Shown here: one piece after another, positions 1,122-26,200 of the stretch
How positions within the stretch are numbered: the first letter of the stretch is position 1
How the letters are laid out: each line of letters starts with the position of its first letter
Assembly: GCA_023231475.1 (NCBI GenBank)
Contig: JALJEE010002443.1
Location: forward strand, 1 to 36,880
DNA length: 36,880 nt
Origin: Seison nebaliae
Taxonomy: Eukaryota
Direction of reading: 5' to 3'
Program-made: the position numbers and the translations under genes
The notes under the pieces: generated by a model
Told to the model about the DNA's origin: nothing
Seen by the model: only the letters and a program-made list of their open reading frames with translations
Databases searched by the model: none

Positions 1122-2194
1122 ATGGGACTATGTAAAGTTAAATTATTTGTTTTCTTCTTCCAATTAATTAACTTATTAATCTCACAACATTGTCAGTGTC
1201 CAAACAGGAAAGTGACATCGTTGTTCTGTTTCCATCATCGAACAAATGTTTGTGAAAAATGTATTTTATCCGACCACCCACAATGTGTGGTTCGAACTTA
1301 TGTGAAATGGTTGGAAGATAATGATTATAACGATCTCTGTGTTTTATGTGATGAGCAGTATAGTCAGAGTAAAACCATCAGATTGTTATGTCTCGATGTT
1401 GTTCATTTGAATTGTCTCGATCGTCATATAAGTCGATTGAATGAACAAAATCCATCATTAATCAATTACAAATGTCCTGTATGTCAAGCATATGATGTGA
1501 TTCCCAAATCGAATGTAAAAGGACGAATTGCTGATATTCTGAGAAAGGAATTGATCGACTTCGATTGGGCGAAGATTATTCTCGGAATTACTAATGTTTC
1601 CTCAATTCTTTTATTATTTTTATTAATATAATTCAAATTAGATGAAACTGGAGAATGAGGAAGAAGGACGATCACCAGAGAATGTATTACGGAAACATAT
1701 GAGTGATAATTCTTTCGAAGAAACAAACGAAGAAAGAGGTTAAAAATTTAAATGAATTGTCCTATAAATTGAATTTCATTAGATTTCCATAGGGATTATT
1801 CTATAGATTTTAATGGAGGAGAAATTACTTCATCGATACCGAACGCTATTTACAGAAATCATGATGATGATAATTCGAAGAAATATCAGAAACCGAGTAT
1901 ATTCTTAAAATTGAAGAGAAGATTTCGGTTTTTAATTTTTATCATTTTTCAATCAACAAATCATTTATGAATATTATAATTTCCAGTTCTGCAATTAAAC
2001 TCGATCGACCAATTCGATATAAATGGACATTAGCCGTACTCATGTTCATTATATTCTTTCTCTTCATGATATTTCTGGCAACGTTTCATTCGGAAGAACA
2101 TATTCACAGATCAATTGACGTTCCTTCACGAGATTATGTCGACGATAAATTCGACCCACATAATAATCCCAATGTCCATGTCGACGTTTACTGA
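1122..2194 (+). CDS. ZFPL1: Zinc finger protein-like 1 (cis-Golgi, B-box-like + RING/PHD-like + C-terminal TM), ~287 aa
   Basis: Exons 1122-1136, 1197-1595, 1642-1738, 1783-1927, 1987-2194, all phases compatible. Splicing restores MGLCK|CPNRKVTSLFCFHHRTNVCEKC...HPQCVVRTYVKWLEDNDY, with LLCLDVVHLNCL, YKCPVC, TM helix and the C-terminal FDPHNNPNVHV motif typical of ZFPL1. Confidence 0.95.
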
Positions 2195-2302
2195 CCGAAA
2201 AATCAACGAAGCGTAACATTATCATTTATAAGCTATCAACATCCATTCCCCAACTGCTCATTAATAGTTTTCATTAAAATTTATTATTCTTTTTTTTTCT
2301 GA

Positions 2303-3848
2303 ATGAAGTTCCATCTCAATAAATTATTTGCCAATTCCATTTTTTTCATTATCATTTTCATCATCTTTTCCAATTGTCAATTGATGAACGGGGAAGAATT
2401 AGAAGATTCAGATGATACAGGATATCCACTTGATTTATTATTCGATGATGATGATGATGTTGATCATGTCATTTCCTACACCACTAATCTGACGATGATT
2501 GGTGAATTTATGACGAATCTCCAGATGATTATGAGACGAGAATCGAAAAATATTCTTCTAAAAAAACAATTGTTTCATATGAACGTTCATTCCTTATCTC
2601 ATAAAGATGGATTATTGTTAGAGAAGAATTCATCAACTAAACATTCTACTCTACTTCAATTCCGATCAACAGTTTTGAATTTTATTAGATTAAATTTCAT
2701 TTACTCAATTTTTGAAGGTGAAATATGAAATACTTTTGCTGGATATGGTTAGTGAATTGAAGAATGAGATGGAGAAATTAATAATTTATCACAAACAATT
2801 TACCTTGAGACTCATTCACGAATCGAACATGTTATTAATATCGTCGAAACAGTTGATTGAATTGTTCGTCATCCAAATGATATTTTGTGGTAATTTATCG
2901 ATTTCTTCCTTTTATACTGTCCATAAAGTGAAGAATGAATATTTGGATGAAATGGAAGCGATGAATACAGTAATCATTTCGAAAGAAATCATTCCAATAT
3001 CGACGATTATGAATCATTCCGTTGAATTTATGACGCCACTTTGTTCTTTCGATATAATTTCTGAATGGACGGAGGGAAATGAGACGGATACTTATTTGAA
3101 ACTCAAATTCCTTCTCGAATCATTTACGAATGATTTGAATTTGGAGAACATGCAAATTTATTCAAAAAATGTCAGTCAATTGATGGATATCGATAATCAA
3201 TTCATTCATCTCTCAATGACACAATTACCGTTATCGATTTGTTACGTTACATTTATCGATCATTCAACAATCCCTATTCCATTATTACCTAATTGTCTTA
3301 CCGTTCATGCTTATTATCAGACAACGGATCGATATCTCTATAATCTCTTTCTCGTCTTCATTATCTACATATTTCCATTTATCTTTATTATGACGGGATA
3401 TTATTTCATCCATAATCTCAAAGAAAAATATAGTAACGAAACTGATTTATCATCTTATCCAAAAATTAAAAAGATGAGAGTGGGAAAATTCATTAATAAA
3501 TTAGAAGCAAATACAAATAAATCGAAGAAATCTGATATGAAAATGGAGACACTTCTCGAAGCAATTCGAATGAATATGTTAGATGCGAAATCGAAAGAGA
3601 ATGAATTTCTTCCCAAAACCGAATTGAGTCATATGGAGAAAGAAATGATAGAACGATCAAGAAATGGATATGAGAATCAATCATTCCGATCTTGTGTCAG
3701 TTCCACGTCCCAAATTGCAGAGACGACCATCACAGATTGTGAAGAGATCAAAAGTAGTGAAGAAAAATTTAACGATGTAATGGATTTCATTCAATTGGCA
3801 CGGGTCAAATGTACAATAAATAAATGTTTGATAATTCCTAAAAAATGA
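2303..3848 (+). CDS. Orphan type I membrane protein (signal peptide, acidic patch, single TM, cytoplasmic tail), ~499 aa
   Basis: Exons 2303-2671 and 2718-3848 joined by a 46-nt phase-0 GT..AG intron. Hydrophobic N-terminus (SIFFIIIFIIFSNC) and TM LFLVFIIYIFPFIFIMTGYYFI. No family recognised. Confidence 0.7.
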
Positions 3849-3856
3849 TCTTTCGG

Positions 3857-6800
3857 TTAATTTCCTTTTTCTAATTCGTACGAAATTCTTAATAGAAGTT
3901 TTGAATCATCAATAAATTTGGCAGTTGTTCGAAAGTATTGTCGGATGAGATTAATATTACAATTGTTCGATGGAGGTGACATATTTAATTTGAATGTTCG
4001 ATATAATCGAATTTGACGTAACATCGATGCCATATATCTCATCTTCTCGAAATTGATGAGGAGAGTTTTCGTTTCGTCATTTGTCGGAACGTCTTCTAAC
4101 GATAACGACGGATCGACTCTCAGATCTTGTTGATGTACAAAATCCTCTACCTGATAATAAGTTTTCTTTCCTTCATGTGTAAATTGGAGATCTGAATAAA
4201 ATAATTTTTGAAAATCATTAAAGAAATATAGAGAGTTCAAAAGAGAATTAAGAAAAACCTCTTAATAGAATTTGGACATAAGGAATAATTTGAGAATTGG
4301 CAGTGATACTGTTCAATCCACCCGAAACTTCTTTCACTTTTTTCTCATCTGCTGATGTCATATATGTCGTCGAATTTCTTACTTCAGTATCAGATGTCAA
4401 TTTATTTGACATTAGTTCGTTACTCTCGCGAAGAACATTCTGTTGGAGTAATTCCTGTTTCCGTTTCTTTGATTTATTTATCATTTCTCGTAACAATCTC
4501 CGATATTTCAAATAAGATCTAGATGGATCGATAATATTTTCCATTTCTGTGAACAATTTCTTAAATTTCCATCCCAACTTATCCCATGTTTTCGTCAAAC
4601 GTCCAACTGCTAAATTTTTCAAACCGAGAGTGATGGAAACGAAGGTAGAGAGATTACCATAAACATTCCTGCAGATGTAAGCGATTTTGATGAATTTCCG
4701 TAAATAATGAACTCGATTATCTAATTTGTTCGTTAATAACATTTCGGTAGCTATCCAATTGGATATTTCATTGAATCCACGAAGGAATATGTTGAGATTG
4801 GCAATGAAATTATGAGGATTAGTTTGGAGACGATCAATCGTGTACCATAAAAGTTCATGTTCATGAATAGAAACGAAATTATTATACTCACGACATGATA
4901 ACACGTAAGCAATTTCTCGTGAAGAGAAATTGACTAATTGTTGAAATGTTCCGTTGAATAAGGTCGTATTTCTTTCCGTCAAATATGTCGATAATCCCAA
5001 TTGTTCGTTCAATGGAACGAGTGAATCAAGATGACATTTATTCACGAAAAATAATCGAACATTACCATTTTCATTGATGATACAATTCATTTGGTCATTC
5101 TTCAAAATTCTCATTATCTGATTCGATGATAATTCGGTCAATAACATTTGCTCTTTATCATCCGATCTGATCCATTGAGTATTCTTTGATAGAGCCGCAT
5201 TCAAAATATCTTGAGAAGTGGCGATTACCGGTAATCGGACAATGAATTGTGTATGATCAGCACAAAATATTCTGAGAATGACTTTATCATTTTTCCTTAT
5301 CGGTTTATAATTCAACATAACCGTATCGAGATCAGTGTAATGTTGTGATCTGATCAATTGAACGGTACGTTTTCTATCCATTCCAATCTGTTCTGGCCAC
5401 ACTTTCGATTGAGAGTTGGTCGGTTCCGTAATTTCTTCTGATTGTTCATTCTCGTCCGACATTTGACTACGATGAATAATGTCACAAATATTAATATATT
5501 TGTTAATATATCGACGTTCGCTAGCTAATTTGGAGAGTTGTTGTTGTAATGTTTGTTTGGCGATTGGTTCGGGTTCGATTTGAACCTTTGGTTGGGCTAA
5601 ATTATTCTCTGAAGAATAACGGACATTTTTGGGCGAATCGACAATTTGAATATTCTTCATACTATTCTTCTTCTTTCGACGAGTAAGAAAGGAGGGACGT
5701 GTATGTTGATCTTTTTTTGGAGAGAAAGTGTTGAGCGATGATTTTTTTGCGGGACGAACTGGACTTAACGATTTGGAAATTCGACTATTGGGAGATATTC
5801 GGACAATTGATCGACGAATACTATTTATATTGGGCAATTTCAATTGTCCAATACTCTCACCACTAATCCGAGTACTTGTATAGGAGAAACGAGATTGAAT
5901 ATTCTTCGCAAATATTGTCGAACTCGAACTAAAACGTTCGGAGAGTGTACTCTTTCGACAATGTTCTTGATCGACGTTTGTCGTCATAATAATTGGAGCT
6001 AACCAAACATCTCCACTAATACGAGAGATACAACAAGTGGCATTCGTTAAACGTTTCGTTATCGGATCGGAACGATTATCACATTTTTTTTCTTCTGGAG
6101 ATTTCTTCTCACATTTCTTCAATGTTTCATTTGAACGATCGATAATTTTTAGACCTAATTCTTCATCGTGATTCGTTGTCATTTCGTCATCTTCTTTATC
6201 GAAATTATTCACCATAAAAAAATAAGGATTTGGATTAAATTGATTCATGTAATAAGCATCACAATCGTTGATATTACCACGAAGTATAATGTTCAATTGA
6301 TTTATATCATCATTCAAATCATCCAAATTTTGATTTGGTTCATTTCGATTCTTTTCGAAATATTCTATCAATTTCTTTATCGTACTAATAATAACGGAAT
6401 TATCATAAAAAGTATGACGAGCAATACATCGCCAAGCACGAAAAAATCTCGTCAATTTTTTTCTTGTTATCGCTAATGTTGGAACGGAATTCGATGACGA
6501 TATATTCGTATCAACATTATCAATCGATTTGACAATCGATAATTTATCTTTGGCGATATTTTCGTAATAATTCAACGACCATAAACATAAATCTTTATCT
6601 GATATGAATGTTTTATAAGTGATGAGGAAATCATCTAAAAATGGATCTAAAATAAATTTAGAAATTAATTTGATTAATATGTATTTAAATAAAATTAAAC
6701 CTAATTCTAATAGATCATAAGATTTGAAATTGATAGTTGTCTCATCATAAATGTCATATTGTTGACAATTTAAACTCGTTTCGAATAAATGTTCTAATAT

Positions 6801-9231
6801 TTTATTGGGACTTCCAGCCGTTACCAAATATCGATAGGAATGATTGATTTCATTCTCGTCGAACATATTTCTTTCTGTACTCTCCTTTTTTATTCGTACT
6901 GGAACTTTGTCCATTATTAACGACACAATATTATTATCTCTCCAAATTACTCGACTCGTTTCATTCTCTGCCATTATCCTGATAACATCCTCTTTGTTCA
7001 CTTTAAGGAAATGACAATCCGATTCATTTAACATCACCGTCGCGGTTCTATTATCAATATTAATACGTAGAATCTTATAGAATATTTAAATTGTCAACCT
7101 GGCAACATTATTGACACAAGCGAATTTCCCAAAATCTTCACCACTGTACAATGTGTGAACAATTCCTTTTCCATGAATGATGATGTTGACGGAACCTTTC
7201 AGTATTATATACCATGCATTCGATTCATCACCTTGATGGAATACTAAAAATTTGGAATATAATATTAAAATTTAAATATAAAAAAAAGTTCTTACTAATT
7301 GTATCTGGTTCAGGATATGCTTCAAAATAAACCACTTTACACACTTCCCTCCTCACCAATTGAGAGAGATTACGGAAAACTAATAAATTTTGTAATTCGT
7401 TATAGATGTGTGAAACGTCTCGATCGGTTCTCAATTTAGATCTGAATAATTATTTCATCATTTATTGATAATAATAATCATTCTAACGGTTTTCGTAACA
7501 GTTTACGAAGATAAGCATCAGGAGCAATACGACCCAACCACAAAACGGCCGTTTGTAATTTGATGTCGTTGAGGTCGATTTCGCCATCGGTTGAATCATT
7601 GGCAGTTGATAAACGAAAACGACTTAACACTTTCATTTCCATCGATTTTCTACCTCGTTTCCGTTTCGTCGAAATCATAGCAAGTGATGCACGACTGTCA
7701 AATTTGGAATGACGTGGCTCTTTTTCGTCATTCATTTGTTTCTCCGATTCTTCTGTATACGTCTCCAACCATCGAACGAATTGATTCTGATATTTCGTAT
7801 TATCGGGATCATCTTGAGCGAATCGATAGAAAACATAATCGTCTTGAAATTCGAATTGACGGTTAACTAAATAAAGTTGAATTAATTTGGAATATGGAAT
7901 TTAAATTCGAACCATGATAGATGATACCTTCCTCGATAAATGCCTGCCACATATTCACTGCTTGTTCTCTCGATTCGGTTACGGGTGATGATTCCAATAA
8001 CCAATTCACCATTTCATCACCTGCCATACATTTGGGATATGTCTATTTAATTAAATTTTATTTAAAATAATTTAAAATGAAAAGAAACAATTAAATGATA
8101 AGTTCGGTCTCTAATCAATTCTGGAGTATTTTTCATGATATATTTTCGGATAACCCATCCACATTCCATCAATCTAGCTGATGGATGCTAATCATTAAAT
8201 ATAATGATTAAATAATAATTTAATAAAATGACCCGAACGGCTGTAATTATTGAAGCTGGATTTTGTATGGGAAGATAATCCGAATTTAAATTATAAACCG
8301 GATTATTCCCAATAATCGCTAAAATGCCATCTGGTATAACTCCAGAATTCATTAACATTTTTGAAATACTCTGTTCGTCATAATTGACGTCATTCTCCAA
8401 AATGTCCTTCTCCGAAAATTCGACAGTCGCCGTATTCTCGTCAGTGAACATGAGAGAACCGAACGCTCTTGGAGTTCCCACTTTCTTCGTCGATATATTA
8501 TCATCATCCTCTATTGGCGGTTCTATTTTTTTTTTCGAATGTTTTTACGTTCTCCTTAATTAGTAAAGAAGAAATAAAACCGTGAAATAAAGTTGTCGTT
8601 AATTTCGTTATTATTTCTTTTACATATTTCTTATGATTCTGAAAAATAATTTCAATTAGAAATAATAAAATTTATGTTTGAATAATTTTCTGAATTAACT
8701 TCCCAAATCACTTTAAAATCATTTTTATGAACACATAATAATTCACAGAATGAAGCAGTGACAGCTGTCGCTTGTCGACATGCACTATCATCTAGCACCG
8801 ATTCACCGAAAGTTGCACCAGCGTGTAGTGTAGCTACATGTTGGAATCCGATTCCTTTCTGATATGGAACTAAAATTTTGACTTGTCCCGAAATTATCGC
8901 GTACCAATAATGTCCGATATCACCAAAACGGAAGACTGCACAATAAATGCACAAAGCGAGAAAAAAATGAATTAACGAGTTACATTAGGAATTAGATCTT
9001 CATAGAATCCATAAATGGACAATTGTTGAATGACTCTCGGATTAAATTTTTCAAATACTCGAATCTCTTTCAATTTATTATAAATGATATCGATATCTTC
9101 ACCATTCCGATAACATGGTCTAGTCAAATAAGATAATTAAGTTAAATGAATTAGTTAAACTTCTTGTCCAATCGTGAAATTGAACTACTCATTTGACTGG
9201 TTTTTAATTGGGAAAATTGTTCGGAAATCAT
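3857..9231 (-). CDS. RAPGEF4: Epac (cAMP-regulated Rap GEF, Epac2-like: CNB-A, DEP, CNB-B, REM, RA, CDC25-HD), ~1586 aa
   Basis: 13 exons: 9231-9161, 9119-8977, 8935-8700, 8638-8581, 8522-8239, 8187-8089, 8042-7913, 7866-7488, 7441-7296, 7243-7099, 7047-6701, 6646-4259, 4191-3857. Motifs GATFGES..R (CNB-A), [18 protein letters not shown] (DEP), EDFGKFA..N..R (CNB-B), [11 protein letters not shown] (REM), [10 protein letters not shown] and INFEKMR (CDC25). Exact start codon less certain. Confidence 0.95.
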
Positions 9232-10505
9232 GTTTCCTTCTTCTTCTGATTAATTTGAATTTTTTGGAATTGATGGAATCGGCTCATTAAATGGTTTTTC
9301 CTTTTAGGAGGGAGTGGATGAAAGTGGAGGAATATGATAGCAAAGAAAGAGAATTTGCATATTAGTGTAATTAAACATGCAGGAACATATAAGAGGCTTC
9401 TACAATATTTTTATGTGGAGAATATTCCGAAAACTATAATTGTCTCATGACATAATACTGGATCGATAAAGGAGAAGAATATTTGAAGATTCCCATCATG
9501 TTCCGTATCTACGTCGGGAAATAGAGAAGAAGTCAATCGAAGGCAATTACTTTCCAGCAAAGAGATATTTCCATAAATTCCCCGCTCCACATGAACGAGA
9601 TATTCTTCTTATTGAATTTTCCATGCAACATTCTTCCACATCGATGCCATTGAAATGTATTAGACGATAAACATCCTCCACCCCAAAAGACTAATAAGAA
9701 TCAGATTGTGTAGAGGTGATATGAGAAGATGACAGAAACGGAATAAATCCAGGAAATAAATTCATTCAATATACAAATCAATTAATTTCCGACCGATAAC
9801 TAATTAATCTATATTTTCATCTTACACATCACATTCGTGATATATAAAAGTGTGAGAAACATCGAATTTCCTTATCAAATTTATTTTCAAAATGTTTTCC
9901 TTTCCTCTTCATATTTTCATATGACAAATTTATTTTCACAATATTTTTATTTTCCACTTTGAATTTTCTTATCAAAATTTATTTTCCAAAATATTTTTCA
10001 TTTCCATATCGAATCTTTCTCGGAAGAAAACACATCGACCAAATCCTAATTGATGTTCATCGGCACCGGAAAAAACGGATGTGCATCACCGTCTGTGTTT
10101 GTGGGGAATTAGAGAATGGGAAATTTTATAGAAAAGAAAATTAATATCGATAAATGGAAAATGGTGAATGAAATGAATCATTGAAATAAATATATAAATA
10201 TGTTCTATGGATTGTCTAGACTTTAGACCACCAATAGAATCATGTAAAACAGAAGAGATTGTTGTTATTGTTGTTGTTTTTGTTGTTGAACAAAAAAGAC
10301 GTTGAATGAATTGAAAGAGAATATCAATCTTGTCAGAGTTATGACATATCGAATGGATGAATGAAAAGAATGATCAGCGAAATGAAAAGTGAGAAAAGTT
10401 TAAAATGAAATTATTTTTAAAATATAATTTTTCTTGTTTTTTTCCTATGCATCGAAATTTGAAAGTTTTTCTTAGAAACTTGAAAAAAAAGGGAGATTGT
10501 GAAAA

Positions 10506-13500
10506 TTAATGATTGCTACTCATGAATTGTGGAAACATGCCGTTTTGTGCAAGTGGCGATTCGAGCACGGCATTCACCATATCCTCCGTTTGCTTCTCCA
10601 CTTGTTGATAATTGTGATTTACCTGATCTGGATCCTGTACCAACTTATTTAAATCAGACGGATAAGATGATGATTGTAATCGACTAAATCGTCCCGGTCT
10701 CCTCAAAATCAGTTCGTCTGGTTTCAACGGATTCTCGTTATATTGGAAAATGTTATCGATTTCCCTTTCATGATTCGCCACCGAATCCAATTGTGCCTGT
10801 TTGTTTTGAGCGGCTAATCGAGAAAAGATTGGAGCGAATGCCTTTCCCGCAAATGCCAGTTTTTGATATGGTTCCGAAATATCTGTTTAGGAAAGAAATA
10901 TGTTTAATGATTAATAATTTCTAGACTAACTATTATATTCATTTCCACTATCCCAATTGTCTGACCGTTCTAAAAAGAAATGAAATTTATTAAAATTATT
11001 TTAAAAATTTAAATTTTATAAAATTGAAATTAAAAAATTGATTACCAGCAAGAATAGCGGGAGGATGATGAAAATCGAATGAAAAACTAACTAAAAATTG
11101 GAGGAGGAATCGTCGTATCAGGAACGTCGAAGAAATTGTTATGTGAATTGTGATAATGAGGTGGATGATTAGCATGATAATTAGTGAACATTTTATTAAG
11201 ATTATTTGGTAATATCATCGTTTTCCGTCCATCACCCAATTCGTTAATTTCGTTAAGACTATGATTATTGTGATTGTCGAATTTAGAGTGACGATCGAGA
11301 TTCGGAGGAACATTCACATTATTCATTTGATGGAAATATCCATTTCCATGATGATTATTATTAATCGAATTAGTTATGTTATTATTAGAGGAATAAGTCC
11401 AATGACATTTAGCACTTCCTGACGTATCACTTCCATCCGTCTCATCATCATCATCCTCGACATTATGACGATTATCATCAACCTCATCATCTTCCGTATT
11501 TAAGGCGAGTGAAGACATTTGGTTAGTTGGATTACTCGTAATACTTTCCGTTAATGAATCAGTCATTATTGAACTATTACCATTACTTAACGTTTTCGTC
11601 GGTCGTAAACTGTTCATTTGTGTCCTGTAGAAATAATTTAAATAAATATATGATAAAAAGAAAAATATACGAAAAGAAAAACGGTTTCAATGGTCTCAAT
11701 GGAACGGATCGGAATATGGTGGCTGAATTGGGACTTAATTCACGTAGAGTGACATAGAACTCTCGAAGTAAAGCGCGTTGACGACAAGTGAACGCTTCAT
11801 GTTTTTGACATCTATCCAAGATTTTGATATATTCCCGTAAACATTCATCTTCTACCACCACCAAATCATCATCAATAGGATCAGTTGATGATGTGTTCTC
11901 CATTGAGAAGAGATTAGAAGTGAAAGATCGAAGGAAATAATGATTTTGTTGATTAGTTTCATTCTTCGAATCATCCTCATTAAATTTAGATACGCCATTA
12001 TTTAAATGAGCTTTCGATCGAAGAATTGTTGTTTGTCGATTGACACCGTTATTGCACATCGGTTTCTGGAGAAGTGGTTGTACATCCTTATAAAAAGGGA
12101 AATAAGAACAAATGAAGACGAATGGTATCTGGAAAAGTGGATGGCGAACACCAAACATCTGATCTTGTTCACATTGAACAATTCGTTTAATATTTTTATT
12201 TTCGATATTTACTGTCTCATTCGAAGTAGATTTAGTATCATCCGAACGGAAGAATGTAAAATCATTCATTAATTGGAGGATGGAGGATTGATCTCTGGGA
12301 TGATAAAATGGTATAATTGATGATATTTTATCTGCTGCCAAATAGACGAAAATGCAAGCCATCAACGAAATGAATTGACCGGGCAAATCGCCGACAGAAA
12401 CATCTTTTGGATTCCAATTAAATAATTTCTCTTCCTTCAAATATTTCTCTAAAGAACTGTCTGATTTCTCGTCACATTCATCCAAATAATGGAAATGTGA
12501 CGGTTGAATTAAGAAACTGCCTTGTTTGGGATGAGATAATGGTTTATATTCATCTCTCGTCTCCAATTTCCATGAACGGATTGGCGTATGAATGAAAATC
12601 TTCGCCATTTGAAGTGCATGAAGAATGCTCATAATTCCTGAGCGCAAATGCATTTCCATATACAGCAACGCCTCTTGACGTTTATTGAGACCTTTGATTA
12701 ATTTGACGAATTTATCTCGAGCTCCTTTCGTGATATTTTTCTCTTCCATCGTCTCATCTCTCAAATTCAACATCTCTTCGTAAGTAAGTGTGGAGAAGAA
12801 TTGTGTATATTTGTGCAATCGATGAGATTTCAACCAATTCGGCACATCTTTCATTCCTGAATTGAATGTATATTCAACTTCCATTTTTCCCAACTTCCCA
12901 CCAAATCTATTCAACGATTGCGTTCCCATCAATGTCTTGTTGGTGGGAGTTCCATTTAACCGTTTTTTTGGTAGTAATGACGATTTATTTGAAATGAAAC
13001 TTTTATTGGAAGTGGTCGATTGTAATTTCGATGCAGTCGATCCAATCGAATTCATATTTAATGGTCGATTCCAACAATTATGTCTCAATCGATAATCGTT
13101 TTTATTCTTTTGAAATAAATGACCGTTGTCATTCTCACCGTTCTGCTGGTTATGTTTAATGAAATCATATCGATTCGACTTCGTCGATGAGAGAGTCGGT
13201 TTACTATACTCATATTTCATCTCATCTGATGTCACTGATGGTGTCTGTTGTTTTGATGATGTTAAGAGAATAGTCGAATCATTAACAGAAGAAGCCGGTG
13301 AAGATTTCATTAGAAAAAATGGATTTGCCAATAATCGATCATTAATCGTTATAATTCTATCACCAAACTCATTCTTCAGTGACGAGTCCATCAATCTCAT
13401 ATTAATCAATTCAACATATTTCTCCAACACATCACTCGTCGCCAACGAATTGATATAATTGACACTGTTGAGAACCTGATCTAAATATTCGGAAATCATC

Positions 13501-14938: not shown

Positions 14939-14959
14939 ATATATATATATATATATATA
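14939..14959. repeat. (AT)10 microsatellite
   Basis: Perfect AT dinucleotide run upstream of Smaug. Confidence 0.9.
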
Positions 14960-15556: not shown

Positions 15557-16802
15557 TCAACTACTCTTCATTCTCCGTCGATGGATATCTCCATTCTCAT
15601 CTCGGAAATAGTCATTGGGAAAGAGATTCAACGCCTCCTCCGAAACCATCTTCCACATCGTGTCTTTATTCAATTTGTTCGTCGTTTTCCTATCACTTTT
15701 CTTGTTCGGGTTACGTTTAATTCGTGAATAAGGTCCGATATTGGAATTCATGATGAAATTCCAGATAACCATCGTCCATGATGTGTATGACGGAAGATTT
15801 TCATAATATTCGGGAGCGATTTCTCGCACTTGTCCCAATTTCCATCCAGGAATCGAAGGGAAATCATGATGCTCGTTATGATATCCGACATTATACGTCA
15901 ACAAATTTCCCGAACCATAATACGAATATGTTTCGAAACCTTAAGAAACATGAAATTATGAGAAGTCTATCGTAAGTTTAACCTTCGTTGAAGACGTAAT
16001 GTTCACTAATAAAATGACCGGCCAAAGGATGATATCCCATTCCGATAAGAGATCCCATCACTAGATAGATGAGTGATTTCACTCCAAAGAAATAGAGAAT
16101 GGTAAAATCGAATGATAATTGAGTGACTATATTGACCATTTCATAAATGTTCATGACTCGCGGCAAAACGATCAACGGTCGAAGACCATAGAAAAAGGGT
16201 TGAAAAAGAACCCAAATACATTTCGTCCATTTAAATTGAAAGAAGAAACATTCGAATGCTGACGGAATATCAACATCTAATTCATCGTCGCCCATATATC
16301 TGAAAAGTTTGATTTAATTTTAATGAAATTAGGAAATAAAAACCGATGATGATCCAAATGATATTTTTTAAATGTTGATGAAGCCGGAATTCCGAGAGGC
16401 ATATTAGCCACATATCCCAAAATACGATTCGCCCACAAATATTTATTACCGAATGCCAAATTGTGGGAGACTTCGTGCATGGCTAACTGGAGAGAATTGT
16501 TGAATGTTCCTCCCACTATCCATGACATGAGAATGATCGTTGTCCATGAATAGTCGTGAAGAGATATGAGATAAGTAATTAGGACTTGAATAGTCACTGT
16601 GAGTAATATCTATGTAAAATGAGAAATTTAATAAAATTTCTTTCAGTAGAAAATCTTGGTAAACGGGAAAAACAATTCGCTTATCATGTCCCATCAATTT
16701 TTTGATTTTTGGATATTTATGTAGAATGAGACGTCGTCTGGTTGCGTGAGGCTCTTCCGTATAAGTCCAATCGAATTCAGTTTTCGAAATTCTGCCACCC
16801 AT
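15557..16802 (-). CDS. DEGS1: Sphingolipid delta-4 desaturase (DES1/infertile crescent family), ~367 aa
   Basis: Exons 16802-16665, 16609-16344, 16299-15983, 15939-15557. N-terminus MGGRIS...EEPHATRR...[10 protein letters not shown], His boxes HEVSH, HLDHH, HNEHH, and GHFISEHY. Confidence 0.96.
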
Positions 16803-17926: not shown

Positions 17927-20187
17927 ATGAATATTAAATTAATATTATTATTAACAATCTTATCTTTGTTTCGGGAAGGGAACAGTTAAAACATTTATTC
18001 GAAATTATGTTACCAAAATAATTATGTGTAGCCTTTTCTTGTTTTTCATGTAATTCGAACTCCGACCCAAATTGTGGTTCACGACCTGAACACTTCATCA
18101 ATAACAATGGAATTAATGTTGTCGATTGCCCTGTGGGCGCTTGTGTGGTAGGAATGAACGCCTACCAGAATGGAAGTTATTATTGAAGAAGTTTTTAGTA
18201 GTTAATAACAATATTGAATTAGACATTTATCGAGATTGTTTAGATAATCTTCCGAATATACCAAATAATTTTCAAAATAATAATGACGGCTCTTCATGTT
18301 ATAGAGATCCATCCGGAGCATATTGTGTATGTACAAATAGTTATTGTAATCAAGATTCTCTTATCCAACAAATAGCGAGGAGTGGTAATAATCCCACGGA
18401 TTTTATCGGTGTGGCAGGTTTTGCTTCACAGAACACTGACGACACAAGTCAAAATCAACAGGTTAAATAATTTCTTTTCAACTGTTCCTGACTATGTCGA
18501 AATCGATTTGTTTACTTTCTTAATAATTTATCTTCCTTTAATTTAATTAATTAAACTTAATTGAAGTAAAATTTGAAAAGTATTTTCCTATTAACTAATG
18601 TCAATAAAATTTAAATATATTTCTTAAATAGCAACCCCCTGAACGTTATCAAGTGAATTATTATGAACCAACCTCTAACGGAAATCTTAATTATTATCAA
18701 TCTGTATTTCATTAAATTTAACTGTATATTTTTATATTCTATTTTGTGTTTCGATAGCCGAACAATAATGTACCACCTTATAATTCTGTACAACCTATTG
18801 GTAATGTTCCGGTTATTACATATGTTCAACAACCAGTGTCGGTACCAGTGCAACAACCTGCTCAAGTTCCTGTTCAACCAGTATATGTCCAGGTAGAACA
18901 ACAAGGACAGCAACCTGTGAGACAACCAGTTCCGGTCCAAGTGCAACAACCTGTCAATAATGTAGTCCAGCAACCGATAAGGCAACCTGTATACGTTCCG
19001 GTAGAACAACCTGTAAGGCAGCCGGTTGCCGTACAACAACCAATAAGACAGCCAGTTGTTGTTCAACAACCGGTTTATGTTCAACACCCAATTAATCGAC
19101 CAGTTCCTGCTCCTCGTCCTGTACAACAACCTATAAGACAACCTGAAACAGTACCTGTACAACAACCGATTAGACAGCCCATACAAGTTCCTATACAACA
19201 ACCTATAAGACAACCAGTTGTTGTTCAACAACCGGTTTACGTTCAACAACCAATTAATCAACCAGTACCTGCTCCTCGTCCTGTACAACAACCTATAAGA
19301 CAACCTGAACCAGTACCTGTACAACAACCGATTAGACAGCCCATACAAGTTCCTATACAACAACCTATAAGACAACCAGCTCCCGCTCCCCGTCCAATTC
19401 AACAACCGATTAGACAACCTGCACCGGTTCCCGTTCAACAACCGATTAGACAACCAGTTCAAGTCCCTCGTCCAATTCAACAACCGATTAGACAACCAGT
19501 TCAAGCCCCTCGTCCTGTTCAACAACCGATTAGACAGCCCGTTCAAGCTCCTCGTCCTGTTCAACAACCGATTAGACAACCAAATATTAATAATGGTCAG
19601 CGATATCCTTCTCAATATCCGATTAATGGACCGATGCAACAGCCCAACTTTCAACCAAATTTCAATTATCAACAGCAACCTAATAATGGTTATAGACCAG
19701 TCGTACAAATTAATGGACCAAATAACAACAACAACAACAACAACCAAAATCTGAATGGTTCTTTAAATTACTGAAATAGATATAAATACATTTTACCATA
19801 AGGTAATACCGGAGGTACTGGTTGAAGTTATTTAACGGTTTTTTTTAATGTTTTCCATTTACTAGGAGGACTAAAATGTATGGTATGTGATCAGAGTAAT
19901 TATCGTTGTCGGGGAAATGTTGTATTTGACGCTACTCCTGGTACTGTGAACATGGAACCATGTAACGGTCATTGTGTTTCATACCGAGAGAATGGAGGTT
20001 AGTAGATCTATATTACGATTCTAACATTTATTTCATCAACATAGTCTTCCATCGTTCATGTTCAATTTATCTACAAGACTTAGTTGGTGTCAACGTTCCT
20101 CCCAACGGTTATGTTCGAGGAAATAGTGGAAATATGTATGAATCATGTTCATTTAATTTATGTAATGGAATGATCCATAATATTTAA
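17927..20187 (+). CDS. Secreted protein: signal peptide, Ly6/three-finger domain, long Pro/Gln/Val repeat, second Ly6-like domain, ~601 aa
   Basis: Exons 17927-17984, 18032-18175, 18223-18461, 18632-18703, 18758-19757, 19803-19820, 19866-19997, 20045-20187, all phases compatible. Domain 1 FSCFSCNS..DPNC...YRDC...YCVCTNSYCN; domain 2 LKCMVC...C...CNGHC...HRSC...CSFNLCN. Confidence 0.8.
18827..19582 (+). repeat. Coding tandem repeat with core QQPIRQP, including a 162-nt duplication (19040-19201 / 19202-19363) and 42-nt units (QQPIRQPVQAPRPV)
   Basis: Directly visible recurrence of caacaacc(g/t)at(t/a)agaca(a/g)cc; variation is mostly at third codon positions of the + frame. Confidence 0.92.
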
Positions 20188-20188
20188 A

Positions 20189-21304
20189 TTACAATAAATT
20201 TGGCATTTGAAAATCATATTGTTGGAAACCGGATACTTCCGGAGTATCCAGAATGCCTTGTGTGCCATATTTTGTAGGAATTCTCAGGAATTTTATCGTT
20301 CCATTTATTATTAATATTGCTAAGATGACTATTATCAGGAGTACGATGTTAATATGAATCTTGGGCCACAATGGTCCTATTCTGTATAATCGATGTCTCC
20401 GAAATATTATGATTAAGCTTAAAATAAATCTCCTAGGCAAATCCAAATACTTTAAACATTTCTCTTCAATTCAATTTAATTAAGACTAAGTCTACCAAAC
20501 AAAATAACTTTGCTTTCTTCTAAGTATTTTTCGATATTTTCTCTTTTTCACTTCCATATAATCCTCCCAATCGAATCCATCCGATAGCTGATTTTCAGAA
20601 CTTGATTCTGATTTTTCCGCAATTGGCATTTTACCTCCAATTGCTATTCTTAAATTTTTTTTCACGTCCATAAATTTATCTTGAACATGCTCGAATCGTT
20701 TCCGGAATCTTTCCCTATTTTTCCGTCGAACTCTTTCTGATAATCTTCTGTGTCTTTGATATCTTGCAAATTTCCGTCTGCTCGCAGCTTTCTTACTCAC
20801 TAATGCATGAAGTTCTCTCTCTAGAATATCGTCATCGATACAAACATTATTGTTATTTCGGTTTCTCCTTGTCATTTCATTTCCTTCCAGAATAATTTCT
20901 AACGAAATTTATAAATTGAAAAAGGATATTTGTATTTAAGTTTCATTATAATGAAACTTTTATTCCATAATCGATTTCCATATTTCGCTTTCTCCGATTT
21001 CCAACAATATTCCAATTTGAGATAGATCAAACTTGATCTATGTAAATCATTTACCGCTAAATATTTCGAATGATGCGGCTAAATTTGACGAATTGAAATT
21101 TGAAATTTTTTATAAAAACTTTGTAGAATAATTAACTGGAATTATGATAGATTGTCTTAAATTCAATTCATTTCCACTACCTCCAATCACATTCAGATGT
21201 TCATTCTTACAATTTTTCATTCTCAAAATTAAACAGATATTCTTTGAAGAACTCTCATTGTAATATACGTCTAATAATTGGACGATGAACTCATTTCCTT
21301 TCAT
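20189..21304 (-). CDS. Orphan membrane protein B: beta-rich (MSP-like?) N-terminus, Arg/Lys-rich middle, C-terminal TM, ~317 aa
   Basis: Exons 21304-21137, 21078-20958, 20898-20509, 20463-20189 link three ORF-track fragments through 58/59/45-nt GT..AG introns. TM INIVLLIIVILAILIING. Shares motifs with the neighbouring gene. Confidence 0.72.
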
Positions 21305-21341
21305 TTCAATTTAATTCATTTCAATTTAATTCATTTCAATT
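21301..21341. repeat. 15-nt tandem repeat (TCATTTCAATTTAAT) x2.7 abutting the start codon of gene B
   Basis: tcatttcaatttaat tcatttcaatttaat tcatttcaatt read directly. Confidence 0.85.
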
Positions 21342-21412
21342 ATCAAAAATCTCCAATATCATTTTATACTAATTAAGAATCGAAAATAAATTTTTAATTC
21401 TCCTCAATTAAT

Positions 21413-22958
21413 TCAAGGTTTAAATGGTATATGGATATGATCGTGCTTAAAACCTCGAACATTGGAAACTAACGGTTCTGTTGTTTCGAAAATTGATTTT
21501 TTCACTTTTGTTAACATTATCATCAGCACGATTAAAATTAATAAAGATATACCAATAATGAAGCCTACCCAATTTTGGAGACCTAAATCCGGAGAAAATC
21601 TAAACTGATCCGGTTTATCACGAGTACCTAACATTGATCCGAAATATTCGAGGACATTTGACTTTCCGTCCTTGTAATTTCCTTTTCGTTTTTTTGACTT
21701 TTTAAACCATTTTTTCTTCATTTTTTTTGATTTTTTCGATTTCCTTGATTTTTTCGATCTTTTCGATCTCTTAGATTTTTTTGATTTCTTCGATCTCTTT
21801 GACTTTTGTGAACTTTTTGATTTCTTTGACCTTTTCAACTTTTTAGATTTCTGTGAATTTGTTGACATTTTCAGTTTCTTCAATGCTAACGATTTCCTCG
21901 AACTTTTCGATTTTTTGGAACTTTTTGTTATTTTTGGTTTTTTCAATTTTAACGATTTTTTTGAACTCTTCGACTTTTTAGAACTTTTTGTTTTTTTTGG
22001 TTTATTCAATTTTAATGATTTTTTCGAACCTTTTGACTTTGTTGGTTTCTTCGAACTTTTTGATTTTTTTAGTTTCTTTGAAATTTTCGATTTTTTGGAT
22101 GTTTTTGATTTTTTAGGTGATATGTTTTTAGGTGATTTTCCCCATCGATTATTATTTGTATTCAAACTATTTGATTGAGATTGATTGTTTTGGTGAAATA
22201 ATAAATTATTAATCTTTGACGGTAAAACGGATCTGGCCATTGTGAAAATGTCTGGAAATTTTCGATTGTCTCTCATCTTTGGTGGTTTTATCCATTCTGT
22301 TGAATGTAAACTGTCTATTGATTGATTTCGTCGTTGAATGTTCCTTAAAAACTGGAATTGCTTATCCGAATTTCGATGGAAGATATTCGTCGTAATATCA
22401 TGAGATGTTCTTAATGATGAATTCGAATAATTGCGATCACACTTTTCCCAAAACAATATGGCAGAACAAGAAGATCGCTCGAACATTTCTTCTTTCAATT
22501 TCCTTAAATCGAAATGTATAGTTTGATAGAAGGTGAATGGTTTATGAACTAGAATAATAATATAATATTGATATTGTTTTATGATGAAATGGAACTCTCT
22601 AATAATGAGTTGACGTCATTATTTGTGGCAGTGATGGTATCGCACCATAAATAAGTTAATTTCAAATAACTGAGTTCAGGTCGATTAACTTCGATTTCGA
22701 TTAATACATATATTGGTGTGATACTCTGGAAATATGAATGATTGTGAGATGATTTGGAAGAATGAAATGAACTTTCAATTTAATGAGTTTCGGTATCGAT
22801 ATAATACCAGGATTTCCTGGGGTGATTTTGATGATGAGATATTGTGTTTGGGATAAATTGTGGATTTGGAAGGAGGCGATGCATTTGGAAGAAGAAGAAG
22901 AAATTAGAACAATGGGCGATATTTTGATTTGAGTGTGCTCATTCATCTCCTCAAACAT
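21413..22958 (-). CDS. Orphan membrane protein A: MSP/PapD-like N-terminus, Lys/Ser-rich (SKK) repeat, C-terminal TM (VAP-like layout), ~483 aa
   Basis: Exons 22958-22773, 22725-22596, 22548-21413 (two 47-nt introns). N-terminus IKISP...FQIHNLSQTQYLIIKITPGNPGIISIPKLIKL resembles the MSP pattern (judged by eye). TM WVGFIIGISLLILIVLMIML. Confidence 0.75.
21680..22135 (-). repeat. Coding low-complexity Lys/Ser repeat (SKK triplets; ~21-aa higher-order unit SKKSLKLxKPKxTKSSKKSKS)
   Basis: Seen in the translation of 21413..22498; boundaries approximate. Confidence 0.85.
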
Positions 22959-23238
22959 TCAACTTTTAATTATTTAAGTTTTATTTGAAAAAAAATAATT
23001 TTTGGAATAAATAAAGTTTTGATGAAATGATTTTTGAAGATTAAATAATATTTTGATAAAGTGATTTTTGTAGAATAAATAAAATTGTTTGAAATGATCA
23101 GAATTTATTATAATAAGAACTGTAAAATGTGTAGACATACAAGAACAGATGTCGGAGTGAGTGATGGAAGGAAATGAAGAAGACTTCCTTTTAAAGAATG
23201 TTCAACATTAAATTTATCGTTTTATTATGATGTGGGTG

Positions 23239-26200
23239 CTAGTAGATGCGAGGAAAGATTCGATAAGGAACGCGTGCACAATATTGTGTCCAAAATTGTT
23301 CATATTTCTCTTGGCAATGAATATTATCTCGTCGATCACGATGGATGAGTAAAATAGTGAAATAGATCGGATAGAACCAAGGTGCCACATTCAGGAAACC
23401 GCATGGTAATGACCAGGATATTGCCATGAGAATATCTCCGAAATAATTTGGATGTCGCACAATTCCCCACCAACCCGACACTAATAATTTCTTCGTTTTA
23501 TTCGTATCGATAGTTTCCATCGCTGATGAGATAATTTTAAATTAGAATTGAACTTTAATAGAAAAAATATTAACTTTTAAATTGTTCTGCTTGTGGATTG
23601 ATACGGAAATCATTTTTCTGGTTATTAGACGAACGGAAAATGATGTAGCCGATCGCCATGAAAAAAACAGCGACATTAAATAGAATACTTGCTCCCGGCA
23701 AAGGTTTTGGCATTTTCAATAAATATTGACATTGTAGAGAATAGAGGAAGGGCACCCAACAGATGTCGCCGAATAATAACATGAAACCGAAACCATCCGT
23801 CAAAATGTCCATCGTCGTCAATACACATTCCTATATATAATTATTTTACTTTTTTGAATTTTGAAGAATGAAAATAAAATTAACTTCGTGCCAAAGTGCG
23901 TCCAATACATAGATGAATTGGAAGAGAGCAATGAGACATAACGAACTATTAAGTGATCCATAAATTTCTCGACATTTGATGATACAACTATAATTAATTA
24001 AGCACTAGAAAATTGGAATGAGAAGTTAGATGGATTGGAAGGAAGAAGACTAACCCAGCCGATGAGTCCTGGTCGGAGTTCGAAGAAGAATTTCAAATCG
24101 AAATCAGCTCCTTTAAATGTGATTCTCGGATTCAATTCTCGTCCCATAAAATAATCGTATATGGGAATCGCTTTCGCTCCGTATGATGATAATTCGATGG
24201 GATTCAATTGACATGATCTCAAGTAGAGATAGTAAGCGAAGAGGAATGAAAATATAATACTCCAAAATATCAGTCCACAAATATGATCGTAGATGGCGGA
24301 ATAACGAACAAATCGAGCAGTCAATGCGATAATGACAATGGTAATAACTAAAGCTTGAATTCCATTACAACGATATTTTAAACGTTTACCATCTCTCAAT
24401 ACTTGTCCGAGTACTAAACGACCAATGGGAAGAAGTGCCAAACAAGCTTGAAATGTTATCCAGCCTAATAACATCCACAAAGCGGTCATATCAACAACTT
24501 CGTACCATTTGGGAATAAACGGAATTTTCAATAAAGATGCTGCCTAAATTCGAATTAGAAAAGATATTAAGAATAAAAAAATAAAAGATAATTGAAACTG
24601 GATCAGCGATCATGTTCATGTAAATGGTAATGAGTGGAAGGACAGCAAGTAAAATGGACGTTCCAACAACACCGCCAAATTGCAATCCTTCCACCTTCAA
24701 ATCGGCTTTCAACGATCTGACTTTTTCTTTCATTTTATCCTACGACGTTCAGTTAGTTAACAGTGAGTGAAATTAAATTAAAAGAAGAAAAAAAGAGGAA
24801 AAACAGAATAAAGGAAATTACTAAAACAATTCCCCTACAATTTTTTTCTGGTTCGATCTTATGTTGGTTCTAACTCTCTTTGGAGGACTATTCACTTTCC
24901 ACATCATTCTTCCAATATCATCATTTCTAAGATTACATTCAAATGTTTAGCTTCAATTTGTTATTATGAATTTTATCCATTAACTCTCATGTACGAATAA
25001 TGCGTTTTCTGAAAATAATTCTTCCAATTATTCTCACTCAACTTCCAATTGTCAATTCGATCAGATGTTATCAATGTAGTTCGGAAGAGAATCCATATTG
25101 TGCATCATTCGGACGATTTAATCCACATAAGAATGCATTGGTCGATTGTTACAGTTTGGAAGCGACAACACCCGGATATTATTGTATGAAAATAACGAAA
25201 CATTCACAAGACACTGTATTTGCTAGAGGCTGGAAAGTTGTTCAACGTCGATGTACTAGTCGTTCCAGTACAGCTGTTGGACAAGGATGTATCCATTATA
25301 CGGATGAATATGGAAATCGAATCGTCGAATGTTATTGTGATCATGATGGATGTAATTCATCGAATTCTTTACAAATTTCTCAATTCCTGTTTTTATGTCT
25401 TTCACTTCTATTCATATTCATCTATTCCATTTAATTATTCCATTCCATTCTGACACTTTTACATTCAATTCCATTCTCAAAATTTTCCATTTAATTTTGT
25501 GATTTTTTTTTTTTGAACATTTTTCAAATTTTATTTTAAAATTTTTCAAGTTTCAGTTTTGGCAATTTTCCATTTTGAATCTCATATATTCTTCATTCAC
25601 ATTCCATAATAAATATATATTTTTCACTAAATTAATTTCATAGACATTATTTCCATTCCAAATGAATACAACAAGTGTTAGTGTGACGAAAATGGAATTG
25701 GACGAATTGAACAAGATTTTGAAGAAAAGATCGACGTCATTGTTGGATGTTGAGAAAAGAATGAATGAGAAGATAAAATCGTATGACGTAAAGAGATCGT
25801 CGATTGAGAAGGACCAAATTGTATCGAAGGAGATAGAAGAATGGAAGGAAGAGTTCTTAGGAAGGAAGAATCATTATAAACAGTTGTCGAATGAAGTGAA
25901 ATCACTTGCTGATATTTTGATAAAAATTGTTGAATAATAAATTTTTCCACTTCTCAACAGAAGTCTTTTTAAATGAAAAATTAATTTTCAACTAACGACT
26001 GGATTGAGAGATGGAGCTTTCATACTCCGAATATGTTTCGAGATGGCACTGGTGGAATTGCAGTTGTTGGTCGTTTGGAGTTTTGATTGTGTTCTCGTAA
26101 ATAGTTCGGGTGGCTGTTCGAATGTTAATAATGATGAGGAGAAAATTTGTAGGAGATGTGACTAACATAAACATCATTTTTGGAGAGGAAGAATTCGGAA

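What the first reader, a model, noticed from the sequence alone, without database searches (positions are those of the whole stretch)
1137..26166. Altered 5' splice-site code: 39 of 41 introns start GTT instead of GTA/GTG
Seen: donors reconstructed by hand in nine genes. ZFPL1 GTTAAA, GTTTCC, GTTAAA, GTTTTT; orphan GTTTTG; Epac GTTTAA, GTTAAT, GTTAAT, GTTTTA, GTTCGG, GTTTCT, GTTCGA, GTTAGA, GTAAGA, GTTGAC, GTTTAA, GTTTTT; Smaug GTTTTT, GTTAGT, GTTAGT; DEGS1 GTTTAC, GTTTTT, GTTAAA; double-Ly6 gene GTTAAA, GTTATT, GTTAAA, GTATTT, GTTCTT, GTTGAA, GTTAGT; gene B GTTAAT, GTTTCA, GTTATT; gene A GTTCAT, GTTCCA; LBR GTTAGT, GTTAGT, GTTTCA, GTTAGT, GTTAAT, GTTAAT. Only two have A at +3 and only 10 of 41 have G at +5. 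Many junctions are fixed by conserved protein motifs, so they are not chosen by the GTT rule, although a few (e.g. Epac GTTCGG vs GTCATT) have alternatives. Known: the usual U2-type consensus is GTRAGT, read by the U1 5' end (ACUUAC) and the U6 ACAGAGA box; +3 T is normally a minority. AT-richness alone would favour A and T about equally. Inference: this lineage may have a compensatory spliceosome change, e.g. U1 reading ACUAAC (perfect partner of GUUAGU, the commonest hexamer here with 6 cases), or altered U6/U1-C/Luc7/Prp8 specificity.
Basis: partly seen in the sequence, partly recalled or inferred. Interest (0 to 1): 0.9.

Follow-up and report, generated by a model that had tools for sequence, protein, structure and literature searches.

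The report
Rotifer introns start GTT, not GTA
In this stretch of DNA from the marine rotifer Seison nebaliae nearly every intron begins with GTT instead of the GTA/GTG usual in animals, likely because its U1 splicing RNA has changed to match (untested), which would be a rewritten splice signal so far described only in an amoeba.

Summary
Confirmed. Database proteins encoded by the window are labelled Seison nebaliae (Rotifera). A published transcript-to-genome map gives 22 spliced gaps here. Each has exactly one GT..AG placement, and 20 of 22 start GTT. Adding introns implied by annotated proteins gives 33 of 35; adding seven frame-only introns gives 39 of 42. Composition predicts 40-48% (P about 1e-9 to 1e-11 for 33 of 35); humans have under 5%. 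Beyond GTT the donor is weak: +5 G 9 of 35, -1 G 11 of 35, no C or G at +3. Introns are short (38 of 42 are 41-67 nt) and dense (42 in nine genes). Shifted register, minor spliceosome and mobile-intron origin were rejected. Best mechanism (about 50%, untested): U1 reading ACUAAC, as in Entamoeba (GUUUGU donors, U1 ACAAAC). No Seison snRNA or other rotifer intron could be reached, so genome-wide extent and lineage limits are open. ACUAAC U1 genes turned up in unrelated metagenome contigs. My literature searches found no animal case. This scan noted GTT donors before in the protist Bonamia, not in an animal.

The parts
1137..1196 (+). ZFPL1 intron 1, GTTAAA, 60 nt
   Evidence: annotated protein P0212
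1596..1641 (+). ZFPL1 intron 2, GTTTCC, 46 nt
   Evidence: P0212
1739..1782 (+). ZFPL1 intron 3, GTTAAA, 44 nt
   Evidence: P0212
1928..1986 (+). ZFPL1 intron 4, GTTTTT, 59 nt
   Evidence: P0212; only open-frame option
2672..2717 (+). orphan gene intron, GTTTTG, 46 nt
   Evidence: P0212; only open-frame option
4192..4258 (-). Epac (RAPGEF4-like) intron 12, GTTTTT, 67 nt
   Evidence: RNA gap; P0050
6647..6700 (-). Epac intron 11, GTTTAA, 54 nt, in frame without stop
   Evidence: RNA gap; P0050
7048..7098 (-). Epac intron 10, GTTGAC, 51 nt
   Evidence: P0050; gap-free homology
7244..7295 (-). Epac intron 9, GTAAGA, 52 nt (the only GTRAG donor)
   Evidence: RNA gap; P0050
7442..7487 (-). Epac intron 8, GTTAGA, 46 nt
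   Evidence: P0050; gap-free homology
7867..7912 (-). Epac intron 7, GTTCGA, 46 nt
   Evidence: P0050; gap-free homology
8043..8088 (-). Epac intron 6, GTTTCT, 46 nt
   Evidence: P0050; gap-free homology
8188..8238 (-). Epac intron 5, GTTCGG, 51 nt
   Evidence: P0050; gap-free against P0052 and P0057
8523..8580 (-). Epac intron 4, GTTTTA, 58 nt
   Evidence: P0050 only; region not conserved
8639..8699 (-). Epac intron 3, GTTAAT, 61 nt
   Evidence: P0050; gap-free homology
8936..8976 (-). Epac intron 2, GTTAAT, 41 nt
   Evidence: P0050; gap-free homology
9120..9160 (-). Epac intron 1, GTTTAA, 41 nt
   Evidence: RNA gap; P0050
10883..10930 (-). Smaug-like (SAM) gene intron 3, GTTAGT, 48 nt
   Evidence: RNA gap in two isoforms, retained in one
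10970..11091 (-). Smaug-like intron 2, GTTAGT, 122 nt
   Evidence: RNA gap
10970..11580 (-).
   Evidence: RNA gap in one isoform
11625..11682 (-). Smaug-like intron 1, GTTTTT, 58 nt
   Evidence: RNA gap in four isoforms
15940..15982 (-). DEGS1 intron 3, GTTAAA, 43 nt
   Evidence: RNA gap; P0025
16300..16343 (-). DEGS1 intron 2, GTTTTT, 44 nt
   Evidence: RNA gap; P0025
16610..16664 (-). DEGS1 intron 1, GTTTAC, 55 nt
   Evidence: RNA gap; P0025
17985..18031 (+). Ly6-like gene intron 1, GTTAAA, 47 nt
   Evidence: reading frame only
18176..18222 (+). Ly6-like intron 2, GTTATT, 47 nt
   Evidence: frame only; GTG and GTA alternatives with lower AT content exist
18462..18631 (+). Ly6-like intron 3, GTTAAA, 170 nt
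   Evidence: frame only; single option between the anchors
18704..18757 (+). Ly6-like intron 4, GTATTT, 54 nt
   Evidence: frame only; single option
19758..19802 (+). Ly6-like intron 5, GTTCTT, 45 nt
   Evidence: frame only; could be one 108-nt intron with the next
19821..19865 (+). Ly6-like intron 6, GTTGAA, 45 nt, after an 18-nt exon
   Evidence: frame only; least certain
19998..20044 (+). Ly6-like intron 7, GTTAGT, 47 nt
   Evidence: frame only; alternatives would remove cysteines or have lower AT content
20464..20508 (-). gene B intron 3, GTTATT, 45 nt
   Evidence: RNA gap
20899..20957 (-). gene B intron 2, GTTTCA, 59 nt
   Evidence: RNA gap
21079..21136 (-). gene B intron 1, GTTAAT, 58 nt
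   Evidence: RNA gap
22549..22595 (-). gene A intron 2, GTTCCA, 47 nt
   Evidence: RNA gap
22726..22772 (-). gene A intron 1, GTTCAT, 47 nt
   Evidence: RNA gap
23523..23574 (-). LBR (ERG4/ERG24) intron 6, GTTAAT, 52 nt
   Evidence: RNA gap
23831..23884 (-). LBR intron 5, GTTAAT, 54 nt
   Evidence: RNA gap
24005..24054 (-). LBR intron 4, GTTAGT, 50 nt
   Evidence: RNA gap
24544..24598 (-). LBR intron 3, GTTTCA, 55 nt
   Evidence: RNA gap
24740..25996 (-). LBR intron 2, GTTAGT, 1257 nt, holds an antisense QVR/Ly6 gene
   Evidence: RNA gap in one isoform; Pfam QVR
26114..26166 (-). LBR intron 1, GTTAGT, 53 nt
   Evidence: RNA gap

Best explanation
The introns of this Seison nebaliae contig are GT-AG introns whose donor has T instead of A/G at +3 in more than nine of ten cases, most likely because the major U1 snRNA of this animal has changed the base facing +3 from U to A (5' end ACUAAC, predicted, not seen). 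Shown: the +3 T rule, weak signals at all other donor positions, short AT-rich G-poor introns, YAG acceptors with no fixed branch motif. Inferred: these are major-spliceosome introns; the rule holds across the genome; an ACUAAC U1 pairs with G|GUUAGU, so that GUU is the obligatory core of a short helix and -1 G, +4 A and +5 G are optional extras; intron length and AT content supply the rest of the recognition.
For: 20 of 22 RNA-defined and 33 of 35 RNA- or annotation-defined donors are GTT. At +3 only T (33) and A (2) occur; C is used 0 times although 191 sense-strand GTC sites lie in the transcribed spans. An A in U1 predicts that; pairing with U6 G44, which faces +3 (PMC11732430 passages), would be expected to admit C as well (inference). 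Residual enrichment lies on both sides of the cut, in U1 register: +5 G 9 of 35 against 5% background (P 4e-5), -1 G 11 of 35 against 16.5% (P 0.02). The commonest hexamer GTTAGT is the exact complement of ACUAAC; 5 of 7 sense copies in the spans are donors, against 1 of 11 for GTAAGT, GTGAGT, GTAAGA and GTGAGA. Counted in fixed register, used donors separate from decoys better with ACUAAC (AUC 0.80) than with canonical U1 (0.64) (partly circular). Precedent: Entamoeba GUUUGU donors with a U1 candidate reading ACAAAC (Roy and Bowser, bioRxiv 10.1101/2022.06.08.495308). Intact U1 genes with ACUAAC exist in nature: 5 metagenome loci, all above the Rfam cut-off.
Against: No Seison U1 was seen. 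Duplex energies did not improve with the variant (AUC 0.68 against 0.70 for canonical). Even with ACUAAC the mean is only about 6 of 11 pairs, +6 T is at background (17 of 35, P 0.53) and +4 A is borderline (P 0.07). U1 stayed canonical in 69 yeasts, Thecamonas and Micromonas with atypical donors and in 227 of 230 Saccharomycotina genomes where a candidate was found, though those are mostly +4 changes. Some transcript isoforms read through or lie inside GTTAGT introns (10930, 11091, 25996), and GTTAG is not depleted in exons (12 sense against 1 antisense). The five ACUAAC loci are not from this organism as far as can be told (35-45% GC), and one sits beside a canonical U1. One contig only.
Confidence: 0.5

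Rival explanations
1. U1 snRNA is canonical, and a protein of the U1 particle or a helper (U1-C, LUC7, TIA-1/Nam8 type) has changed so that it reads or requires U at +3 in these short U-rich introns.
For: The site outside GTT is too weak for RNA pairing alone to explain a near-invariant +3. Entamoeba U1-C is strongly diverged. In yeasts, donor shifts track the loss of proteins (METTL16, SNRNP27K), not snRNA change. C. elegans SNRP-27-sensitive donors tend to exclude A at +3 (1 of 26).
Against: A canonical U1 would leave a U-U mismatch in the middle of the helix in over 90% of introns and should still favour A/G, yet A/G sites in intron-like context are almost unused (1 of 33). No Seison splicing protein was examined.
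Confidence: 0.22
2. Donor choice has moved to the U6/U5 hand-over: U1 is lost or unimportant, and U at +3 is kept because it makes a G-U pair with G44 of an unchanged U6 ACAGA box.
For: U6 G44 faces +3 and interacts only weakly with A/G there; U1 is dispensable in some settings and absent from Cyanidioschyzon (PMC11732430 passages). Roy and Bowser note that GUUUGU increases pairing with an unchanged U6. +4 A tends to go with +5 G (7 of 9 against 10 of 26, P 0.06).
Against: +5 G, the main U6 pair, is present in only 9 of 35 and +6 T is at background. C at +3, which could pair with G44, is never used (0 of 35). 29 of 35 donors fit neither the AG|GU nor the GURAG class.
Confidence: 0.18
3. The bias is local or compositional: T-rich introns plus a small sample from one contig, with an ordinary spliceosome.
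For: One contig. Intron interiors are 48% T. I recall, unverified and from no call, that nematodes and bdelloid rotifers have a sizeable +3 T minority.
Against: Nine unrelated genes on both strands agree. Even a 60% expectation gives P 5e-6 for 33 of 35; 95% interval 0.81-0.99. Matched decoys are not GTT-biased. An ordinary U1 should favour A.
Confidence: 0.05

Closest known systems
Entamoeba GUUUGU(U) donors with co-evolved U1 ACAAAC (Roy and Bowser, bioRxiv 10.1101/2022.06.08.495308; abstract, Introduction and two of three parts of Results read)
   Same: U at +3 in nearly all introns; short AT-rich introns; GT-AG ends.
   Different: Entamoeba is intron-poor with a rigid hexamer (88-90% GUUUGU, 97-98% GUUUGN). 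Seison has 42 introns in nine genes, keeps A as the commonest +4 base, has +5 G in a quarter of introns and its commonest hexamer in 6 of 42. Its U1 is unknown. It is an animal.
Mastigamoeba balamuthi U1 ACGUAC with GUGCGC donors (same preprint)
   Same: Atypical donor with a matching U1 change in a more intron-rich species (2.5 introns per gene).
   Different: The change is at +4 (C); +3 stays a purine.
GUAUGU donors of Saccharomycotina, Giardia and Trichomonas; METTL16/SNRNP27K loss (PMC10581693, passages read)
   Same: Lineage-wide shift of one donor position.
   Different: Position +4, canonical U1 and U6, linked to protein loss and low intron number. Seison's +4 is mixed A/T (17/13 of 35).
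Standard metazoan U2-type donors, NN|GURAG and AG|GUNNN classes (PMC11732430, passages; human counts in PMC5387049 Table 1)
   Same: GT..AG ends; residual -1 G, +4 A and +5 G.
   Different: GUU classes are 3,604 of 215,155 human introns (1.7%, at most 4.6%); C. elegans has A at +3 in 58% (PMC6140464, passage). Here 33 of 35 are GUU, 1 of 35 is GURAG and 5 of 35 are AG|GU.
Bonamia ostreae GTT(T) donors
   Same: GTT donors with weak +5 G.
   Different: A protist with 19-32 nt introns and A-rich acceptors; Seison acceptors are TAG 26, CAG 12, AAG 4 of 42.

Membership tests
Spliceosomal GT-AG introns | Removed from mRNA with GT at the start and AG at the end | tested here: met
   22 of 22 transcript gaps have a unique GT..AG placement
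Standard metazoan U2-type donor consensus | Purine at +3 in most introns | tested here: not met
   2 of 35
Standard metazoan U2-type donor consensus | Most donors fall in the GURAG or AG|GU class | tested here: not met
   29 of 35 are in neither
U12-type (minor) introns | Donor GUAUCCUU / AUAUCCUU (Table 1 of PMC5387049) | tested here: not met
   0 of 42 donors
Entamoeba-type transformed donor | U at +3 in nearly all introns | tested here: met
   33 of 35
Entamoeba-type transformed donor | Rigid GUUUGU hexamer and low intron density | tested here: not met
   0 of 42 GTTTGT; commonest hexamer 6 of 42; 42 introns in nine genes
Entamoeba-type transformed donor | U1 5' end changed to complement the donor | not testable with these tools
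   No genome held, no snRNA in the window; the five ACUAAC loci cannot be tied to this species
+1 shifted-register donors | Consensus G moved to +6 | tested here: not met
   G at +6 in 2 of 35, at +5 in 9 of 35
Introner-type mobile introns | Introns share sequence with one another | tested here: not met
   All-against-all blastn of the 42 introns: only 12-20 nt AT-rich matches, apart from the two overlapping Smaug introns

The most novel reading that the evidence does not exclude
Seison nebaliae is an intron-rich animal that has recoded its 5' splice signal across the genome, from GURAGU to GUU(AGU), by letting a U1 snRNA variant with an ACUAAC 5' end take over from the canonical U1. Tens of thousands of donors would have co-evolved with one snRNA base, against the pattern that such transformations are concentrated in intron-poor lineages.
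Probability: 0.4. Interest if true: 0.9.

Novelty: new variant of a known kind. Interest (0 to 1): 0.72.

Why it matters
The purine at +3 and the U1 sequence that reads it are among the most constant features of animal splicing. Roy and Bowser describe atypical donors as concentrated in lineages that lost most of their introns, and compensating U1 changes in only two amoebae. An intron-rich animal with near-obligate +3 U would test directly whether U1 pairing, U6 hand-over or proteins set the donor consensus, a question still argued in the U1-versus-U6 literature. It would also show whether a whole intron population can follow a change in the machinery. The test is cheap: genome and RNA-seq data for this species exist, and relatives (acanthocephalans, bdelloids, monogononts) can date the shift. 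In practice, splice models trained on other animals will mis-score this genome's donors.

Tried and rejected
Whole-genome search: no genome held. Sequencing runs: no RNA holder listed; four runs laid on part of the window behaved as DNA contigs and showed no intron-sized joint, so they say nothing on splicing. Rfam on the window: 0 matches. Rotifer outgroup: none of the 30 proteins looked up in three cluster calls, apart from the window's own, was named as a rotifer; a DEGS1 scan of viral contigs gave one irrelevant locus; a canonical-U1 pattern in viral contigs gave 0. Papers on bdelloid tubulin introns, bdelloid desaturases, the Pomphorhynchus genome and two intron surveys gave no rotifer donor counts in the passages seen; their figures are not held, and most of their supplements were not read. 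Rejected readings: shifted register, minor spliceosome, introners (membership table); aligner artefact (each gap has a single GT..AG placement); GTTAGT as the antisense of a branch motif (strand fixed by transcript gaps and frames); hidden in-frame introns at exonic GTTAG sites (most are not followed by an AT-rich stretch or lack an AG at intron distance). Not significant: GTTAGT in long introns (2 of 4 against 4 of 38, P 0.09); -1 G versus +5 G see-saw (2 of 9 against 9 of 26). No fixed branch motif: CTRAY within 45 nt of the acceptor in 8 of 35. The statement in PMC5387049 that A is rare at +3 in fly and worm conflicts with the 58% in PMC6140464 and was not used. In one search one Ly6 coordinate was mistyped; one search corrects it, and the RNA and annotation counts are unaffected.

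Full report
Source. The window is an AT-rich (about 32% GC), gene-dense animal contig. Three database proteins that match it at 99-100% and lie on a 36,880-base contig are labelled Seison nebaliae by their source: P0025 (DEGS1), P0050 (Epac/RAPGEF4) and P0212 (ZFPL1). Seison is a rotifer of the order Seisonacea.

RNA check. Supplement 2 of PMC8351084 is a GMAP map of Trinity transcripts on an S. nebaliae assembly (Methods section on RNA-seq read; the file is cut at 19,906 rows). Thirty-three rows belong to a contig in register with the window. Twenty-two rows carry intron-sized gaps; eleven do not and were left out. They give 22 distinct gaps. For each I listed every equivalent placement: each has exactly one GT/GC..AG solution, all on the minus strand, so no splice model chose the donor. 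Twenty begin GTT and two GTA.

Annotation and homology. How that annotation was made is not known to me, so it is weaker evidence than RNA. Ten of 12 Epac junctions and all three DEGS1 junctions are gap-free against named animal orthologues. RNA plus annotation gives 33 GTT of 35. The seven introns of the Ly6-like gene rest on reading frame alone; with them the count is 39 of 42.

Chance. T follows GT in 40% of all window GTs and 44% of GTs inside introns; intron interiors are 48% T, 35% A, 5% G. The binomial P for 33 of 35 is 1e-11 to 4e-9, and for the RNA-only 20 of 22, 8e-7 to 2e-5. The 95% interval is 0.81-0.99. Unused GTs within 25 nt of real donors are 13 of 33 GTT (P 1e-6). Among sense GTs followed by an AT-rich stretch and an AG at intron distance, 27 of 55 GTT, 1 of 15 GTA, 0 of 18 GTG and 0 of 23 GTC are donors. 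For comparison, GUU classes are 1.7% (at most 4.6%) of human introns (Table 1 of PMC5387049), and 58% of C. elegans introns have A at +3 (PMC6140464).

Anatomy. Of 35 donors: +3 T33 A2; +4 A17 T13 C4 G1; +5 A13 G9 T8 C5; +6 T17 A13; -1 G 11. Against intron background, +3 carries 0.78 bits, +5 0.43 and +4 and +6 almost none. Only 1 donor is GURAG and 5 are AG|GU; 29 are neither. Thirty-eight of 42 introns are 41-67 nt. Acceptors are TAG 26, CAG 12, AAG 4, and no branch motif sits at a fixed place. G at +6 occurs in 2 of 35, so the signal is not the usual one slid by a base; no donor is minor-type; the introns are not copies of one another.

Mechanism. Position +3 faces the second U of U1's ACUUAC (established knowledge) and later G44 of U6 (PMC11732430). 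One change, U to A in U1, would both remove the preference for A/G and create one for U. It fits the absence of C at +3, the residual -1 G and +5 G in U1 register, and GTTAGT as the top hexamer (5 of 7 sense copies used, against 1 of 11 canonical-looking hexamers). Entamoeba offers the precedent. A pattern scan of metagenome contigs found five U1 genes with ACUAAC, all above the Rfam cut-off. Four are two versions of one intact gene that differ at 3 of 161 positions while the flanks differ more; the fifth is a weaker copy beside a canonical U1. So such a U1 exists in nature, but nothing ties these loci to Seison. Against the idea: duplex energies do not improve with the variant (AUC 0.68 against 0.70), the rest of the site is weak, several lineages with odd donors keep a canonical U1, some isoforms retain GTTAGT introns, and exons do not avoid GTTAG. 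I give U1 change 0.5, a protein reader 0.22, U6-stage selection 0.18 and a local or compositional effect 0.05.

Novelty. The Seison genome paper does not discuss splice sites: in its main text 'splice' occurs once, 'intron' twice, 'snRNA' and 'donor' never, and supplement 1 has none of five terms. Ten library searches returned no report of a dominant +3 U donor in an animal. The library lacks most subscription journals and holds no figures, so a logo in a survey or supplement could have been missed. Papers seen: passages of PMC8351084 (also abstract, one Methods section, both supplements in part), PMC10125929 (also a supplement search), PMC11347140, PMC11732430, PMC11347168, PMC4901422, PMC10639083, PMC6140464, PMC5387049, PMC10581693, PMC7310846, PMC3464624 and PMC10597677; abstract and one section of PMC1557818; abstract, Introduction and two of three Results parts of Roy and Bowser. 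Earlier notes of this scan report GTT donors in Bonamia and shifted GTT classes in other protists; there were none for this genome or for an animal.

Verdict. It works like the Entamoeba +3 U donor but is not the Entamoeba system: it lacks the rigid hexamer, occurs in an intron-dense animal, and its U1 is unseen. New variant of a known kind, interest 0.72. The two open risks are that other rotifers share much of the bias (untested) and that U1 is unchanged.

Noticed in passing
L001 1080-1240 (-), L004 343-503, L002 2888-3048, L005 347-507 (-): Intact U1 snRNA genes (138-141 bits) with the variant 5' end ACUAAC in two sequence versions; the body differs at 3 of 161 positions while the flanks differ more, which suggests a conserved variant U1 in an unidentified eukaryote that might serve GUU donors.
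   Followed up: partly
L003 1155-2553: Cluster of a U2, a divergent ACUAAC U1 copy (85 bits) and a canonical U1 (121 bits).
   Followed up: partly
window 24970-25434 (+): Single-exon Quiver/Ly6 gene (Pfam QVR, 3e-14) nested antisense inside the 1257-nt second intron of LBR; a further open frame at 25644-25937 (+) lies in the same intron.
   Followed up: partly
window 2186-2308 (+): The public annotation (P0212) fuses ZFPL1 to the downstream orphan frame through a 123-nt intron that skips ZFPL1's stop codon; likely an annotation error, no RNA row covers it.
   Followed up: partly
window 10970-11682 (-): The Smaug-like gene has alternative donors (GTTAGT at 11091, GTAATA at 11580) sharing one acceptor, plus isoforms that retain introns.
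   Followed up: partly
window 17927-20187 (+): Gene with two cysteine-rich Ly6-like segments separated by about 330 residues of PVQQPIRQ-type repeats; no Pfam match at 0.01 for the frames tested and no RNA row.
   Followed up: no
window 26932-29655 (-): 907-residue open frame with a homeodomain (Pfam 2e-19; NK2-like by recalled motif) and long asparagine/serine-rich arms, followed by about 7 kb without an evident gene.
   Followed up: no
window 21413-22615 (-): Gene A carries a long lysine/serine repeat (SKKSK type) followed by a hydrophobic stretch; function unknown.
   Followed up: no
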